Positions 12,909-53,621 of a stretch of DNA of 64,000 nt are shown in pieces (within the stretch, counting starts at the first letter, position 1; each line of letters begins with the position of its first letter). This DNA comes from a virus. The stretch lies in IMG/VR virus record IMGVR_UViG_3300001765_000052; one strand, written 5' to 3'. Below the pieces are notes generated by a model. That model was not told the origin of the DNA. It saw only the letters and a program-made list of their open reading frames with translations, and did not search any database. A program made the position numbers and the translations under genes.

Positions 12909-13406
12909 AAAACACCTACATTATAATTTGACACATAGAAATAGTTGATTATTTTTATTTTACTATAAATAAAAAAAGATATAGTTAAACAATATAATGA
13001 GTAAGTAAACCCAAATAATATATTAATTAATATATTATTTATCGTCTCGTCCGCGCTACGCACGAACATCGTGCTTGGTATTTATAGTTTTATATTATTA
13101 TAATTTTTTAATATATATTTAATAAATTATATATTAAAATACATTAAAAGTTATTTTATGCCCTTTTTTGGACTTGACGTCCAAGGGCATAAAAGTCTTT
13201 AATTATTCCGAAAATGATACGGCTCGTTTGTACGACAGTACAAACTTCGCACGTAGTAGGTAAAAGGTTAAAATATAAATACCAATAGATTTAATTCGCT
13301 ACGCTCTTAAATAGATATACAAACCCCCCTCCCTAACGGTTCCCCCCTCTAGGAACTATAACATACATTATGCTTATCATTTTTTACACAAACACTACAA
13401 TAATAT

Positions 13407-13485
13407 TCTAGATTTTTTCAATCTTATATTATTTTAATGTGTTAGTGTCTTAACCAATGCAGTTATGCTGTAAGGAGAATTTATT
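13407..13485 (+). promoter_or_regulatory. early-promoter and leader module (cassette 5' element)
   Basis: tctagattttttcaat..tatatta..tg, then a TGCAG/CTGTA hairpin and AGGAG. The TATATTA core resembles the phiKZ early promoter TATATTAC. Confidence 0.75.
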
Positions 13486-32466: not shown

Positions 32467-32497
32467 AGCATATATTATTTTAATGAGAGTAGTTTGT

Positions 32498-32574
32498 CCA
32501 CTAGTGGCCAAGTCGGGTTTAAGGCAACGACCTCATAAGTCGTCGATTCATTGGTTCAAATCCAATCTAGTGGA
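32498..32574 (+). tRNA. tRNA with CAU anticodon (probably Ile2, lysidine-modified; Met not excluded)
   Basis: Cloverleaf: ccactag/ctagtgg acceptor, gcc/ggc D stem, acgac-ctCATaa-gtcgt, attgg-ttcaaat-ccaat. CCA is not encoded. tilS lies about 240 nt downstream. Confidence 0.9.
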
Positions 32575-32597
32575 CAAACTACTCTCGTTTACATAAA

Positions 32598-32819
32598 ATG
32601 AAATTTAAAATGGATAATGCAAATACAAATCAAACTAAACTTGAAATAGATTTAGAAGCTGTTAAAAATGCATTAAGCGATTTTGTTCAAGGTTATCCGG
32701 AATTAGATCGGTTAATTAAAGAATCTGATTCGTTTGAATTAAAATGCAATAAAGGTACATTAAATCTTACTGTTGTAAATACTGGTTTGGTTACTACGTA
32801 TTCTAAACATTTAAGATGA
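32598..32819 (+). CDS. hypothetical protein
   Basis: ORF coupled to tilS through an ATGA overlap. Confidence 0.6.
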   Translation: MKFKMDNANTNQTKLEIDLEAVKNALSDFVQGYPELDRLIKESDSFELKCNKGTLNLTVVNTGLVTTYSKHLR

Positions 32820-33427
32820 AAATCTATTTTCTTAAATCAGCACCAAAAGAATGTTATCTTGCTTTTTCTGGTGGAGTAGATTCAGTGGTATTATTGGATC
32901 TATTAATTAGTAAAAAGGTAGATGTAACATTAGTTTGGGTGGATCATAACACGTCATGGTGCAAACAAGAATTTGAGTTTGCGAGAGAAACAGCCAAAAA
33001 ATATAAACTTGAATTAGTTTGTTATAAAATTAATCTATTTGACAAATCTACTTCACTAGAATGCTTTTGGTCTAGAGAAAGAAACAGAATATTTCAATCT
33101 TTAGATAAAAAAGTATTAGTTGGACACACGTTGGATGATGCAATGGAATGGTATGTAATGTCAGCATTCCAAGGAACTGTAAAGTTATTAGATTATCAAA
33201 ATCAGAATGTTCTTAGGCCATTATTAACAACATCCAAAGAAAAGATTTTACAGTATGCAAATAGAAATGATTTGGTGTATCTAATAGATCCTTCAAATTA
33301 CGATTCTGAATTTAATCTAAGGAATAAAGTTAGATTAAATTTAATACCGGAAGTGTTAAATTGTTTTCCTGGGTTACGCACAACAGTAGCAAAACTGATT
33401 CGTAGAAAAGAGTTTAAAAATGCTTAA
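32816..33427 (+). CDS. tilS: tRNA(Ile)-lysidine synthetase, catalytic domain only
   Basis: AFSGGVDSVVL PP-loop, GHTLDD..E, RPLL, DPSN and RNKVR motifs. Confidence 0.9.
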   Translation: MKIYFLKSAPKECYLAFSGGVDSVVLLDLLISKKVDVTLVWVDHNTSWCKQEFEFARETAKKYKLELVCYKINLFDKSTSLECFWSRERNRIFQSLDKKVLVGHTLDDAMEWYVMSAFQGTVKLLDYQNQNVLRPLLTTSKEKILQYANRNDLVYLIDPSNYDSEFNLRNKVRLNLIPEVLNCFPGLRTTVAKLIRRKEFKNA

Positions 33428-33632
33428 CATAATTATTGAGGGTCCAGATAAAGCTGGTAAAGGACATTTGATTGCACTCATTAGCCGTAAACTAAAGCAA
33501 TCAGGATTGAATGTAACTATTCAATCTGAAACAACACACAATGCACCAAAGATTGCAAAGACTGACGATGAATTAGTTGACAGGTTAAAAGATGTCGAGA
33601 TCTTTATAAAAGAAATGCAAACATTTTCTTAG
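33420..33632 (+). CDS. small P-loop protein (dNMP-kinase-like fragment)
   Basis: IIIEGPDKAGKG. Confidence 0.6.
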   Translation: MLNIIIEGPDKAGKGHLIALISRKLKQSGLNVTIQSETTHNAPKIAKTDDELVDRLKDVEIFIKEMQTFS

Positions 33633-33676
33633 AGTGACAAAGTTAATTAGGAAAAAAGAATTTAAGTAAAGTTTTA

Positions 33677-33764
33677 CCGCCTTGTCCCAATACCAGCCTT
33701 CTAAGCTGGCGTCGTTAAACAATTGGATGGATGACAAGAGGCTCGTTTCCTCCAGGGCGGTCCA
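33677..33764 (+). ncRNA. tRNA-like RNA lacking a D arm, with an Arg(UCU)-type anticodon loop
   Basis: ccgcctt/agggcgg acceptor plus T-CCA, ccagc-ctTCTaa-gctgg arm, gagg-ctcgttt-cctc T arm. Confidence 0.65.
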
Positions 33765-33799
33765 TACATTTTGTACATTAAAAGTTTGCCGGCATTTTA

Positions 33800-34145
33800 G
33801 CATATTAGTGTTTGTAGTTCATATGTGTATCTAATCACGAACGAAAAGCACCAGGCCCTAAGCCTGCATTAAAAAGATTCTGAACTGACAGAATTAACCA
33901 ATTAGGTATCAGTAAACCAAATTTAAGATCAAGATGTGTACGGTGTCTTGTGTGTACTAACGTATTGTAGTTCTAATGTGTGTATAATCACGAACGAAAA
34001 TACGGGGTGACGATACTGGGTTGTATTGAAGTCCCCTCCTTTCGAGGGCTTGCGTCGGACAGGCTTAACAAATTATACATCCGACAAATCCTAAATTATG
34101 GATTCGGCAACTTCGTTAAATGTTTGGTGTCAACTAAACATAATT
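33800..34145 (+). ncRNA. candidate large structured ncRNA (two loop-E-type hairpins, possible pseudoknot)
   Basis: Duplicated hairpin domains at 33808-33851 and 33961-34004 with compensatory closing stems, many other hairpins, and no credible ORF. Confidence 0.65.
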
Positions 34146-34175
34146 TTGTGTTAATATTCTTGTCAAGGAATTAAA

Positions 34176-34526
34176 ATGACTGTTACTATTTTAAATAGTT
34201 TAGATAAGCGTAAACGGTTACGTATTCGTAATACATTGACTGGCTTAGAGCTTCTACCAAATGTCAAAATAATTGATGAAGATGAATGTAATTTCATCCG
34301 AATTAAGCATAGACAGGAATATATTCCTGATTTTGAATTAGTGTGGTGTGATAACAAAAAACATTATAGAGTTTATATACTTATAGCAAGTACTAAACAC
34401 ATTAAAGAAAATAATGGTTATTGTATTTTCACCATACCCAATCAGTTAGCAGCAATGGGTTTTGGAACTATGTATGGTTTTATTTATAAATATCGTGCTA
34501 ATAATAAAATACCATTATTAGCATAA
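34176..34526 (+). CDS. hypothetical protein
   Basis: AAGGA SD. Confidence 0.75.
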   Translation: MTVTILNSLDKRKRLRIRNTLTGLELLPNVKIIDEDECNFIRIKHRQEYIPDFELVWCDNKKHYRVYILIASTKHIKENNGYCIFTIPNQLAAMGFGTMYGFIYKYRANNKIPLLA

Positions 34527-51832: not shown

Positions 51833-53621
51833 CTTTTTGTCCAGTTAGTTCGTTAATCTAACCCGGTGTGCTACGACACCCGCCAATACTTTCATATTGG
51901 AACAGACTATATCTTCATCCCCAGCATTATCTGGTAGGATGTTCTCCGCTTCGGAGGCACTGCCTCCTACTCGCATCGCTGCGATAGTCGTTGAACCTTA
52001 TCCACTGTATCTCTACATAGAGGATCTTGGCTGCTGATTACCCAATCCAAATCGTTTTCAAACTATGGCTTTAGCTTTCGCTTCGCAGTAGTGATTTGGC
52101 TCTTTAGGGACTCCCAGCAATTCAAAGAAAATACATTAAAACATTACTGTTTTAATGACCTGAAAACAAACCCTTTAAAAGGTTCTCCGGTAAATATCCT
52201 ACGCTTAACAGTCCTAAACTCAACGCCCGACACAGTGGCGGCATGTTTTATTGAGTTAGCAATAGTTTCCACACCAGTAGAAACATTTGTTATTGAGACT
52301 CTATCGTGCGTAGTTGGTTTATTCTTATAATCATTTAGATTAAAATCTTTGTTTCTAGGGACAACAACCCATTTGTTAGAATAAATGAACTTGAATCCAC
52401 GACTTAAATCGTATTGCAATTCAGTTCGGCTTCTTCCAATATGTGCTGCTGATTCAATAATTGATTTAAAAATATATGCCTTACTATTTTCTAAATCATG
52501 GACAAAATACGGTCCAATTATTGAATTTCTGACATAACTAACTTCCAGATCAGGATATTTTTCTTTGAATAATCCAATGGCGTAATCTAAACTACTTCTT
52601 TTATCTTTCAATCCAGAATGTAATTTATATTTATTACGAAATTTTTTTGAATTTGAGAATCTATTAATTTCACCTGTCGATTTGTCTAACACTGTTATTG
52701 TGAAAATCGATTTAGTAAAAGAAAAATCTTCATTTTTGTTTTCGTAATACCAAGGACTATCGTCGTCAAAATATTTTATCTCGTATCGTTTCTTGTAAGC
52801 CGCACCAGGCAATTTATTTACTAAACTCCCTGGGACTATATTTGACATACCTAGAACACGAGACATTTCTCCTGCTGACCTATAAATAACAATTTCTCCA
52901 GTAACAATATCTCTGGTTTTCATTTTACTACAACCAGAGTTTAAACCAATATCAAACGCATGATTAGAATTACGCTCGTATGTGCACCACTCTAAATTAC
53001 TTAGTTTGTTGTTGGTTTTATTACCGTCGATATGATTCACTATTGGTTTATTAATGAAATCGTTATTTGGAAGCCACGCTAATGCCATTAGACGATGAAC
53101 GCGAGTGTTTCTATTTCCGCCTTTATCTGGTGAATAAATAAAAATTACTTCGTACTCGTCTAGTATTTCCCTATCGGTGACTATTTTTCCAGTTAAAGTA
53201 TCTAGAACATCTGAATCTATATTTATAGCGTATCTAGAGTAATTTGGTATAAAACGAAAACCTTCTTTATAATAAATAGGTTCACTAAACATCATTATTT
53301 TGCCACAACTAACTCTTAGAATTTTATGTGGATTGTAAAACTTAATTTTATCTATATGTTTATCTAAATCGTGTATATGATCTAATTCATACCACGCTAA
53401 AAGCGAAACCCAAATTACACTTCGTTTAATTATTTTACCAAATAATTCTATATATACAAATTTATCAATTCTCTTTAACTGTATTTTAGTACCGTAATTA
53501 TCAAAGAAATCACCTTGTAGATTTACAAGAATATTTATATTACCGGGTATCTTTTTAATCATTTTACGTTTTTCCTATGTTTCATACCATAGGTGCGTAA
53601 TTTGATCGGTGTTGTTCGTTA
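51833..53621 (-). mobile_element. group I self-splicing intron carrying an HNH endonuclease gene
   Basis: Minus strand has P (AAUUGCUGGGA), Q (AAUCAGCAG), R (GUUCAACGACUAU) and S (AAGAUAUAGUC), with P7 gactat/atagtc. Exon 1 ends in U, the intron ends in G, and splicing restores ...NFFST-RRITFITPHQLS. Confidence 0.92.
52144..53562 (-). CDS. intron-encoded HNH homing endonuclease (NUMOD4/HNH/NUMOD1-like)
   Basis: VHRLMALAWLPN..VNHIDGNKTNN..SNLEWCT...N..HA, with C-terminal 'SI..AA' repeats. Confidence 0.9.
   Translation of the reverse strand: MIKKIPGNINILVNLQGDFFDNYGTKIQLKRIDKFVYIELFGKIIKRSVIWVSLLAWYELDHIHDLDKHIDKIKFYNPHKILRVSCGKIMMFSEPIYYKEGFRFIPNYSRYAINIDSDVLDTLTGKIVTDREILDEYEVIFIYSPDKGGNRNTRVHRLMALAWLPNNDFINKPIVNHIDGNKTNNKLSNLEWCTYERNSNHAFDIGLNSGCSKMKTRDIVTGEIVIYRSAGEMSRVLGMSNIVPGSLVNKLPGAAYKKRYEIKYFDDDSPWYYENKNEDFSFTKSIFTITVLDKSTGEINRFSNSKKFRNKYKLHSGLKDKRSSLDYAIGLFKEKYPDLEVSYVRNSIIGPYFVHDLENSKAYIFKSIIESAAHIGRSRTELQYDLSRGFKFIYSNKWVVVPRNKDFNLNDYKNKPTTHDRVSITNVSTGVETIANSIKHAATVSGVEFRTVKRRIFTGEPFKGFVFRSLKQ

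What the first reader, a model, noticed from the sequence alone, without database searches (positions are those of the whole stretch)
33677..33764. D-arm-less tRNA-like RNA with an Arg(UCU) anticodon loop and encoded CCA
Seen: a 7-bp acceptor stem, a 3' UCCA, a T-like arm (loop CTCGTTT) and a canonical anticodon arm ccagc-CTTCTAA-gctgg. Only about 9 nt separate the acceptor and anticodon arms, so there is no D arm. That linker (ccaat) can instead pair with attgg in a ~28-nt insert 3' of the anticodon arm, and cttgtc can pair alternatively with gacaag. It lies just upstream of the ornate RNA candidate. Inference: a non-canonical tRNA, a decoy for anticodon nucleases or tRNA-modifying toxins, or a processing signal that releases the downstream RNA.
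Basis: partly seen in the sequence, partly recalled or inferred. Interest (0 to 1): 0.7.

Follow-up and report, generated by a model that had tools for sequence, protein, structure and literature searches.

The report
Rewired, pseudoknotted phage arginine tRNA
This 88-base gene in a giant phage is very probably a working arginine tRNA for the codon AGA, but half of its D-arm lies after the anticodon arm, so it folds as a pseudoknot rather than the textbook cloverleaf; it belongs to a widespread phage family that gene finders miss and that I found in no paper.

Summary
At 33677-33764 (+) there is an acceptor stem, U73-CCA, a perfect CUUCUAA (UCU) anticodon arm and a T arm, but no D hairpin. ARAGORN and Rfam's tRNA model do not call it.

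It is not a decayed tRNA. A covariance model built from 29 other phage sequences, without the window, hits exactly these coordinates at 86.7 bits (E 6e-22).

The family has:
- an 8-bp acceptor stem and a 4-bp T stem;
- a D-loop-like GGAUGGA motif;
- a second helix (GTCGTT/GATGAC) that makes the fold an H-type pseudoknot.

In the family, 99% of cells pair and 19 of 22 pairs show compensatory changes.

Members sit in phage tRNA clusters. They fill the Arg(UCU) slot: 0 of 30 loci hold a canonical tRNA-Arg(UCU), and 3 of 3 whole phage genomes lack one.

Here the gene lies beside a tRNA(CAU) and a short TilS, in a phage where AGA makes up 51% of Arg codons.

Best reading: a functional non-cloverleaf tRNA-Arg (about 0.75). 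Charging and decoding are untested.

This copy's T loop (C54/U58) is unique to its lineage.

This scan has found the same family before on other DNA.

The parts
33677..33764 (+). Whole rewired tRNA-Arg(UCU) gene, 88 nt, CCA encoded
   Evidence: Covariance model R1, built without the window, hits exactly here: 86.7 bits, E 5.8e-22. Sequence.
33677..33684 (+). Acceptor stem, 5' strand (CCGCCTTG), 8 nt; pairs with 33753-33760
   Evidence: All 8 pairs covary in the family; 97.6% of cells are paired.
33685..33686 (+). Linker U (U8-like) and the first C of the invariant CCC
   Evidence: Y then CCC is invariant in the alignments. The role is inferred.
33687..33691 (+). X helix, 5' strand (CCAAT); takes the place of D-stem strand 22-25 and runs on into the anticodon stem
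   Evidence: RNAalifold predicts it on its own. 100% of cells are paired; 3 of 5 pairs covary and the other 2 never vary.
33692..33692 (+). Invariant A between the X helix and the anticodon stem (position-26-like)
   Evidence: Invariant column.
33693..33709 (+). Anticodon arm CCAGC-CUUCUAA-GCUGG; anticodon UCU at 33700-33702
   Evidence: The loop is invariant in the 29 sequences of alignment A1 and in this copy; one later member (AhSzw-1) has CCU. All 5 stem pairs covary. 28 of 28 hits of an anticodon-free pattern carry TCT.
33711..33716 (+). V helix, 5' strand (GTCGTT); pairs with 33730-33735
   Evidence: Part of the single-sequence minimum-energy fold. Within-sequence complementarity scores 4.73 against 3.96 +/- 0.14 for mismatched partners; 11 different complementary pairs occur.
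33717..33721 (+). A-rich connector (AAACA), loop 2 of the pseudoknot
   Evidence: A-rich in all members.
33722..33726 (+). X helix, 3' strand (ATTGG); takes the place of D-stem strand 10-13
33727..33731 (+). D-loop-like AUGGA; read as A14, G18, G19 and A20 (the ArgRS determinant)
   Evidence: The GG is invariant and the following A nearly so. The assignment to tRNA positions is inferred from canonical phage tRNA-Arg D loops (UGGAUAG) and from the fuller D loop of the 7/5 variant.
33730..33735 (+). V helix, 3' strand (GATGAC); ends 2 nt before the T stem, like a variable arm
33738..33752 (+). T arm GAGG-CUCGUUU-CCUC; the loop has C54 and U58 where all other members have U54 and A58
   Evidence: 4-bp stem, 100% paired, 3 of 4 pairs covary. 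The deviant loop is seen only here and in the relative L190.
33753..33764 (+). Acceptor stem, 3' strand (CAGGGCGG), discriminator U73, encoded CCA
   Evidence: Most of the 31 aligned members encode CCA.
32816..33427 (+). Context: short TilS (lysidine synthetase, N-domain only), 203 aa
   Evidence: TIGR02432 at 100.2 bits against a cut-off of 93.6. PF01171 at 89.8 bits. About 90 homologs of about 200 aa, many on large contigs.
32498..32575 (+). Context: tRNA with CAU anticodon, probably tRNA-Ile2, the TilS substrate that reads AUA
   Evidence: ARAGORN and Rfam tRNA. 30 of 80 phage TilS loci hold a tRNA(CAT) within 4 kb. The Ile2 identity is inferred.

Best explanation
The element is a gene for a working elongator tRNA-Arg(UCU) that reads AGA, the phage's commonest arginine codon. 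It does not fold as a cloverleaf.

Proposed fold:
- The acceptor stem (8 bp) and T stem (4 bp) together keep the standard 12-bp branch that EF-Tu binds.
- After one U and one C, the strand CCAAT runs through a single A straight into the anticodon stem.
- CCAAT pairs with ATTGG, which lies after the anticodon arm. This 5-bp helix (X) extends the anticodon stem the way a D stem does.
- Next comes AUGGA, which acts as a compact D loop: GG docks on the T loop and the following A serves as A20, the main ArgRS determinant.
- The flanking segments GTCGTT and GATGAC pair (helix V), like a class II variable arm. The whole fold is therefore an H-type pseudoknot with the anticodon hairpin sitting in loop 1.

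In terms of segment order, the D-stem 5' strand and the D loop have moved from before the anticodon arm to behind it.

The RNA would be cut out by RNase P and 3' exonucleases, charged by the host ArgRS and used on the ribosome. Together with the neighbouring tRNA(CAU) and TilS, it would supply AGA and AUA decoding for a 30% G+C phage.

Shown here: the helices, the invariant motifs, family membership, the genomic slot and the codon demand. Inferred: the three-dimensional equivalences, processing, charging and decoding. Why the core is rewired is unknown. Escape from tRNA-targeting defences that read the D loop is a guess.
For: 1. Membership. Model R1, built from 29 other sequences, hits 33677-33764 at 86.7 bits. 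This is inside the family range of 74-104 bits; ordinary tRNAs score 25 bits or less.
2. Structure. RNAalifold recovers the acceptor, X, anticodon and T helices unaided. 99.1% of 682 cells pair, 19 of 22 pairs have double changes, no shuffle of 500 does as well, and slid controls reach at most 53%. Helix V is supported by the own-partner versus swapped-partner test.
3. tRNA-specific constraints. The CUUCUAA loop is invariant. 28 of 28 hits of a pattern that left the anticodon free are UCU. The only other anticodon seen is CCU, also Arg, in Aeromonas phage AhSzw-1. The acceptor/T branch is 12 bp. CCA is encoded in most members. A conserved GGA matches G18-G19-A20, and A20, C35 and U36 are the bacterial Arg identity set (PMC9976931).
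4. Slot.
   - Members lie inside tRNA clusters, for example 14 nt after tRNA-Thr in fHyAci03.
   - None of 30 family loci holds a canonical tRNA-Arg(UCU), even with 27 other tRNAs including Arg(ACG) and Arg(UCG).
   - The whole genomes of fHyAci03, KissB and ME3 have no canonical tRNA-Arg.
   - Phages with related TilS genes carry a canonical tRNA-Arg(UCU) near TilS instead.
5. Demand. In the window's long ORFs, AGA is 51% of Arg codons and AUA is 34% of Ile codons. TilS and a tRNA(CAU) lie 0.25-1.2 kb upstream.
6. Constraint in this lineage. The relative L190 differs at 24 of 508 flanking bases but at 0 of the 88 element bases. Three mat samples from 2020 show a variant that differs at a dozen flanking places; where their contigs cover the element (one fully, one nearly fully) it is unchanged.
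Against: There is no expression, processing or aminoacylation data for this copy or, as far as I found, for any member.

This copy's T loop (CUCGUUU) lacks the U54-A58 pair that every other member keeps, so it could be impaired.

The discriminator varies across the family.

The two C-G pairs of helix X and the proposed U-A58 pair never vary, so covariation cannot tell pairing from tertiary contacts. The assignment of the GGA to G18-G19-A20 is by analogy only.

Alignments fitted to a model lean towards its structure, and my search patterns fixed some motifs (CCC, GGATGG, the T loop).

The mismatches between L190 and the window are clustered, so the P of about 0.01 for 0 of 88 is not robust.
Confidence: 0.75

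Rival explanations
1. It is a tRNA mimic that is not used for decoding: a decoy or sponge for an anticodon nuclease, a tRNA-modifying toxin or another tRNA-binding host factor that reads the Arg(UCU) anticodon loop.
For: The anticodon loop is the most conserved part. tRNA-targeting defences, and phage tRNAs that counter them, are well documented (PMC10264068, PMC11464382). Many members stand alone without other tRNAs: 12 of 30 loci.
Against: A decoy should accompany a working tRNA, not replace it, yet no canonical tRNA-Arg(UCU) co-occurs. A decoy for an anticodon nuclease has no need for a 12-bp acceptor/T branch, an encoded CCA or an A20-like nucleotide, and all three are conserved. The codon demand fits decoding.
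Confidence: 0.12
2. It is a tRNA-like punctuation mark: an RNase P/RNase Z processing signal that releases the neighbouring structured RNAs (33800-34145) or mRNAs from a long transcript.
For: It lies 36 nt upstream of two copies of a conserved structured RNA module, on the same strand (earlier notes).
Against: Family members elsewhere are followed by ORFs or tRNAs, not by that module. In the relative L190, 259 extra bases separate the two. A punctuation signal has no need for an invariant UCU anticodon loop.
Confidence: 0.05
3. It is a decaying or already impaired copy: once a member of the working family, but now losing function, as the aberrant T loop (C54/U58) might suggest.
For: In every alignment made here, only this lineage lacks U54 and A58, which form the reverse-Hoogsteen pair of the T loop (established tRNA knowledge).
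Against: All 22 helix pairs, the anticodon loop, the GGAUGGA motif and CCA are intact, and the score of 86.7 bits is mid-range for the family. The sequence is identical in a relative that is 95% identical in the flanks, and unchanged, where covered, in samples taken six years apart. Both members of the 54-58 pair changed together.
Confidence: 0.06

Closest known systems
Canonical bacterial and phage class I tRNA-Arg(UCU) (Rfam RF00005), e.g. the genes near TilS in related phage contigs L110 and L112
   Same: Same CUUCUAA anticodon loop and 5-bp anticodon stem. 12-bp acceptor/T branch, T loop (UUCGAUU in most members), GG-A D-loop motif and encoded CCA. Same place in phage tRNA clusters and next to TilS and tRNA(CAU).
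   Different: No D hairpin. The D-stem 5' strand and D loop lie after the anticodon arm, so the fold is a pseudoknot. The branch is 8/4 instead of 7/5. RF00005 and ARAGORN do not detect it.
D-armless mitochondrial tRNA-Ser(UCU/GCU) of animals, e.g. [quoted passage not shown]
   Same: No D hairpin between the acceptor and anticodon stems. Anticodon for AGN codons.
   Different: Those tRNAs replace the D arm with a short flexible connector and are shortened. This one is longer than a normal tRNA, rebuilds a D-stem-like helix and D loop from a distant segment, keeps a full T arm, and is made to work with bacterial, not mitochondrial, factors.
(8/4) allo-tRNAs and the (8/4) tRNA-Ser and tRNA-His of bacteria and phages (Mukai et al., PMC5389517)
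   Same: 8-bp acceptor plus 4-bp T stem; a long extra arm between the anticodon and T arms; occurrence in phages.
   Different: Allo-tRNAs are cloverleaves with a long D stem and tetraloop, and have Ser, His or varied anticodons. That paper reports no Arg(UCU) species without a D hairpin.
Phage tRNAs that escape tRNA-targeting defences (T5 tRNAs against PARIS and retrons; PMC10264068, PMC11464382, PMC12409363)
   Same: A phage-encoded tRNA that differs from the host tRNA. AriB is reported to make base-specific D-loop contacts, and type I-A retrons are suggested to cut D loops.
   Different: Those tRNAs keep the cloverleaf and change a few bases, mostly in the anticodon stem-loop. Here the anticodon loop is unchanged and the core topology is altered. 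No link to any defence has been tested.

Membership tests
Rewired phage tRNA-Arg family (defined here by model R1) | Full-length match to a covariance model built from other members | tested here: met
   86.7 bits, E 5.8e-22, model positions 1-86 of 86, the only hit in the window. Family range is 74-104 bits and the next class scores 43 or less.
Rewired phage tRNA-Arg family (defined here by model R1) | Helix between the 5' linker (CCNNN) and NNNGG located 3' of the anticodon arm | tested here: met
   CCAAT/ATTGG in the window. 100% of cells are paired, and 3 of 5 pairs show double changes across 31 sequences.
Rewired phage tRNA-Arg family (defined here by model R1) | 8-bp acceptor stem plus 4-bp T stem | tested here: met
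   G33684-C33753 forms the 8th acceptor pair. That pair is GC, CG, AU, UA or UG in 28 of 31 members.
Rewired phage tRNA-Arg family (defined here by model R1) | CUUCUAA anticodon loop and the GGAUGGA motif | tested here: met
   Both are present. The loop and both GG doublets are invariant columns and the rest of the motif is nearly so.
Rewired phage tRNA-Arg family (defined here by model R1) | T loop UUCRAUU | tested here: not met
   The window has CUCGUUU (C54, U58). Every other member has U54 and A58.
Canonical tRNA (Rfam RF00005, cloverleaf) | D hairpin between acceptor and anticodon stems; match to the tRNA model | tested here: not met
   No RF00005 hit even at E <= 10 on a 751-base stretch. 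ARAGORN finds nothing in any mode. The same holds for the fHyAci03 member.
Canonical tRNA (Rfam RF00005, cloverleaf) | Aminoacylation and use in translation | not testable with these tools
   No RNA run holds the stretch. Biochemistry is needed.
Metazoan mitochondrial D-armless tRNA-Ser | D arm replaced by a short unpaired connector, with no substitute helix | tested here: not met
   The connector pairs with a distal segment, with covariation.
(8/4) allo-tRNA (PMC5389517) | 8/4 branch together with a long D stem capped by a tetraloop, in a cloverleaf | tested here: not met
   The 8/4 branch is present, but there is no D hairpin.

The most novel reading that the evidence does not exclude
The family is a natural non-cloverleaf elongator tRNA. 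It is charged by host ArgRS and used by bacterial ribosomes. Its transplanted D stem and D loop were selected because they make the phage's AGA-decoding tRNA invisible to host or rival-phage tRNA nucleases (or modification enzymes) that read the D arm or D loop. In this phiKZ-like lineage the changed T loop (C54/U58) would be a further step of the same escape.
Probability: 0.2. Interest if true: 0.92.

Novelty: new variant of a known kind. Interest (0 to 1): 0.78.

Why it matters
The cloverleaf is taken to be universal for cytoplasmic and bacterial tRNAs; the accepted exceptions are shrunken mitochondrial tRNAs. A widespread phage tRNA that keeps every functional module but joins them in a different order would have several consequences.
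- It would show that the L shape can be reached by another topology.
- It would give tRNA engineers a natural orthogonal scaffold.
- It would show how ArgRS, RNase P, EF-Tu and the ribosome tolerate a rebuilt core.

On the practical side, tRNA finders miss these genes. Phage tRNA inventories and codon-compensation analyses therefore lack their AGA tRNA, and some records annotate spurious ORFs over the gene (for example KissB).

For this phage, the gene completes a small module (tRNA(CAU), TilS, tRNA-Arg(UCU)) for the A-ending codons AUA and AGA.

Tried and rejected
- BLAST of the 801-base region against cultured phages found nothing. Only short-query, relaxed searches found relatives.
- Single-sequence folding is not significant (z = -1.15).
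- The sigma-70 promoter and terminator scan gave background numbers only, and this phage type probably uses other promoters.
- The search for related loci with the single TilS protein found nothing in viral contigs. The alignment query worked, but only 2 of 80 TilS loci hold a (7/5-type) rewired tRNA. TilS linkage is therefore not a family trait.
- No RNA holder was listed for the stretch, so expression could not be examined. The only runs laid were DNA contigs.
- No whole genome is held for the window. I could not check whether this phage has a canonical tRNA-Arg(UCU) elsewhere.
- Literature searches for a description of such tRNAs found none. Mukai et al. (PMC5389517) and the review PMC7609411 do not cover them.
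- Rejected:
  - a recent D-arm deletion (the architecture is conserved);
  - the cttgtc/gacaag alternative helix;
  - tmRNA (ARAGORN);
  - a possible pairing of this copy's T-loop GUUU with the AAAC connector (other members do not share it).

Full report
**What is there.** The stretch 33677-33764 (+) lies in a 543-base gap between ORFs (33632-34176) of a 30% G+C phage-like window. It reads as follows:
- 8-nt acceptor strand;
- U, then C;
- CCAAT;
- A;
- anticodon arm CCAGC-CUUCUAA-GCUGG;
- C;
- GTCGTT;
- AAACA;
- ATTGG;
- AUG;
- GATGAC;
- AA;
- T arm GAGG-CUCGUUU-CCUC;
- 8-nt acceptor strand;
- U;
- CCA.

ARAGORN (all modes tried) and Rfam's tRNA model (even at E <= 10) do not report it. The single-sequence fold is unremarkable (z = -1.15).

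**It belongs to a conserved family.**
- An exact search for the 17-nt anticodon arm in IMG/VR gave mostly normal tRNA-Arg(UCU). It also gave several sequences with the same odd layout, in which the linker/insert pairing changes in step: CCAAT/ATTGG, CCTAC/GTAGG, CCGAC/GTCGG, CCTGC/GCAGG.
- Two degenerate pattern scans added about 25 more distinct members. The second scan left the anticodon free, and all 28 hits carry TCT.
- RNAalifold on 29 sequences, without the window, predicts four helices unaided: an 8-bp acceptor, the 5-bp linker/insert helix X enclosing the anticodon arm, the anticodon stem, and a 4-bp T stem.
- A covariance model from that alignment finds 33677-33764 as the only hit in the window (86.7 bits, E 5.8e-22).
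- Family members score 74-104 bits, a looser related type about 40, and ordinary tRNAs 25 or less.
- On 31 sequences, 99.1% of cells pair and 19 of 22 pairs have compensatory double changes. No shuffle of 500 reaches this, and slid registers give at most 53%.
- A second helix V (GTCGTT/GATGAC here) lies between the segment after the anticodon stem and the segment before the T stem. Own partners score 4.73 and swapped partners 3.96 +/- 0.14 (maximum 4.37). Eleven different complementary pairs occur.
- X and V interleave, so the fold is an H-type pseudoknot with the anticodon hairpin in loop 1.

**How I read the fold (inference).** In segment order, the D-stem 5' strand and the D loop have moved behind the anticodon arm.
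- CCAAT occupies the place of D-stem strand 22-25 and runs through one A (like position 26) into the anticodon stem.
- ATTGG stands for strand 10-13.
- The following AUGGA is a compact D loop (A14, G18, G19, A20).
- Canonical phage tRNA-Arg D loops read UGGAUAG.
- A related 7/5-type rewired tRNA has a fuller UAAYUGGAG after its three-pair helix.
- Helix V then behaves like a class II variable arm whose loop carries these parts.
- The 8+4 acceptor/T branch keeps the 12 bp that EF-Tu needs (PMC5389517).
- A20, C35 and U36 are the bacterial arginine identity set (PMC9976931).
- The two C-G pairs of X never vary, so pairing and tertiary use cannot be told apart there.

**Where members occur.**
- Cultured phages carry the gene, always unannotated or under a spurious ORF: Acinetobacter phages fHyAci03 (14 nt after tRNA-Thr, inside the tRNA cluster), KissB and ME3; Salicola phage SCTP-2; Salmonella phage Arash; Nitrincola phage 1M3-16; and Aeromonas phage AhSzw-1. 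The last has two in tandem, CCU and UCU.
- None of 30 family loci holds a canonical tRNA-Arg(UCU). This includes a locus with 27 tRNAs, among them Arg(ACG) and Arg(UCG).
- The whole genomes of fHyAci03, KissB and ME3 contain no canonical tRNA-Arg.
- The anticodon-free pattern found only four hits, all in metagenome-assembled genomes, in one genome each of 185,579 prokaryote species, against 28 in IMG/VR.

**This window's setting.**
- The ORF just upstream (32816-33427) is a short TilS. It passes the curated cut-off of TIGR02432 (100.2 against 93.6 bits).
- A tRNA(CAU) lies at 32498-32575. It is probably the tRNA-Ile2 that TilS converts to read AUA: 30 of 80 phage TilS loci have a tRNA(CAT) nearby.
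- Seven of those TilS loci carry a canonical tRNA-Arg(UCU), so the same module exists with the normal gene.
- ME3 and Nitrincola 1M3-16 also pair the rewired gene with a tRNA(CAU).
- In the window's 40 long ORFs, AGA is 51% of Arg codons and AUA is 34% of Ile codons.

**Constraint in this lineage.**
- A related mat-phage contig (L190) is 95.3% identical over 508 flanking bases (24 differences) and identical over the 88 bases.
- Three mat samples from 2020 carry a variant with 12 listed differences in 33400-34000. One contig spans the whole element and another reaches 33756; neither differs from the window inside it.
- The differences are clustered, so this is only moderate support.

**What is unusual about this copy.** Its T loop is CUCGUUU, with C54 and U58. 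Every other member keeps U54 and A58. Both partners of the 54-58 pair changed, and the change is shared with L190. I cannot say whether it weakens the elbow or is adaptive.

**Rivals.**
- A decoy fits poorly, because the gene replaces the normal tRNA rather than accompanying it and keeps features that a decoy would not need.
- A processing signal for the downstream RNA modules fits poorly, because other members lack those modules and L190 has 259 extra bases in between.
- Decay is unlikely, since all helices and motifs are intact.

**Literature and earlier notes.**
- I found no paper describing such tRNAs.
- This scan has flagged the same family on many other genomes, and other agents reached similar readings.
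- I reached the same reading independently before consulting those notes. I treat them as leads, not support.
- One note says that part of the same claim on other DNA later fell, without saying which part. Claims such as 'phage-only' or 'first outside mitochondria' should therefore be made with care.

**Verdict.**
- Observation: confirmed.
- Interpretation: a non-canonical tRNA is supported; decoy and processing signal are not.
- Best reading: a functional, pseudoknotted tRNA-Arg(UCU), probability about 0.75. Expression, charging and decoding are untested.

Noticed in passing
window 32816-33427 (+) and 32498-32575 (+): A 203-aa TilS consisting of the N-terminal PP-loop domain only (TIGR02432 above its cut-off) lies next to a tRNA(CAU). 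About 90 homologs of about 200 aa occur in metagenomes, and 212 viral contig stretches encode a relative. This looks like a phage AUA-decoding module (tRNA-Ile2 plus lysidine synthetase).
   Followed up: partly
window 32485-32496 and 32575-32586: The tRNA(CAU) is flanked by a perfect 12-nt inverted repeat (GAGAGTAGTTTG / CAAACTACTCTC). T32497 also faces the discriminator A32574, so the acceptor stem could extend to a helix of about 20 bp. No CCA is encoded. This is an unusual precursor structure.
   Followed up: no
L135:3450-3529, L124:6104-6185, L047:12999-13080 and 13348-13429: A second, looser type of rewired tRNA-Arg. It has a 7/5 branch, U8-A9, a 3-bp YCUC/GAG helix around the anticodon arm and a fuller D-loop-like UAAYUGGAG behind it. 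Anticodons are UCU and, in L047, CCU. It scores about 40 bits with model R1.
   Followed up: partly
L212:1401-1488 and 1495-1579 (Aeromonas phage AhSzw-1, MG676225.1): Two rewired 8/4 tRNA-Arg genes in tandem, one with anticodon CCU and one with UCU. Both are unannotated in the record.
   Followed up: partly
L084:12942-13023: An 8/4 tRNA-like gene with a GCA (Cys) anticodon, a D hairpin and a long extra arm, on the same viral contig as a rewired tRNA-Arg. It resembles the 8/4 species of Mukai et al.
   Followed up: no
window 33790/33807; L190:509-767: A related mat phage, and the variant seen in the 2020 samples, carry 259 extra bases between the tRNA gene and the downstream structured-RNA modules. 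The extra bases include a GC-rich hairpin. Contig ends pile up at this junction.
   Followed up: partly
window 33800-34145 (+): Two copies of a motif (...TAATCACGAACGAAAA...) lie in the structured-RNA region just downstream. Other agents have described this region as a double-pseudoknot RNA module. It is not part of the tRNA family.
   Followed up: no
window 51883-52179 (-): A group I intron matches Rfam RF00028 at 103.5 bits.
   Followed up: no
L208:49-122 and L206:96-167 (Acinetobacter phage ME3): ME3 carries a tRNA with a CUA (amber-reading) anticodon, and another tRNA-like gene for which ARAGORN gives an undetermined two-base anticodon.
   Followed up: no
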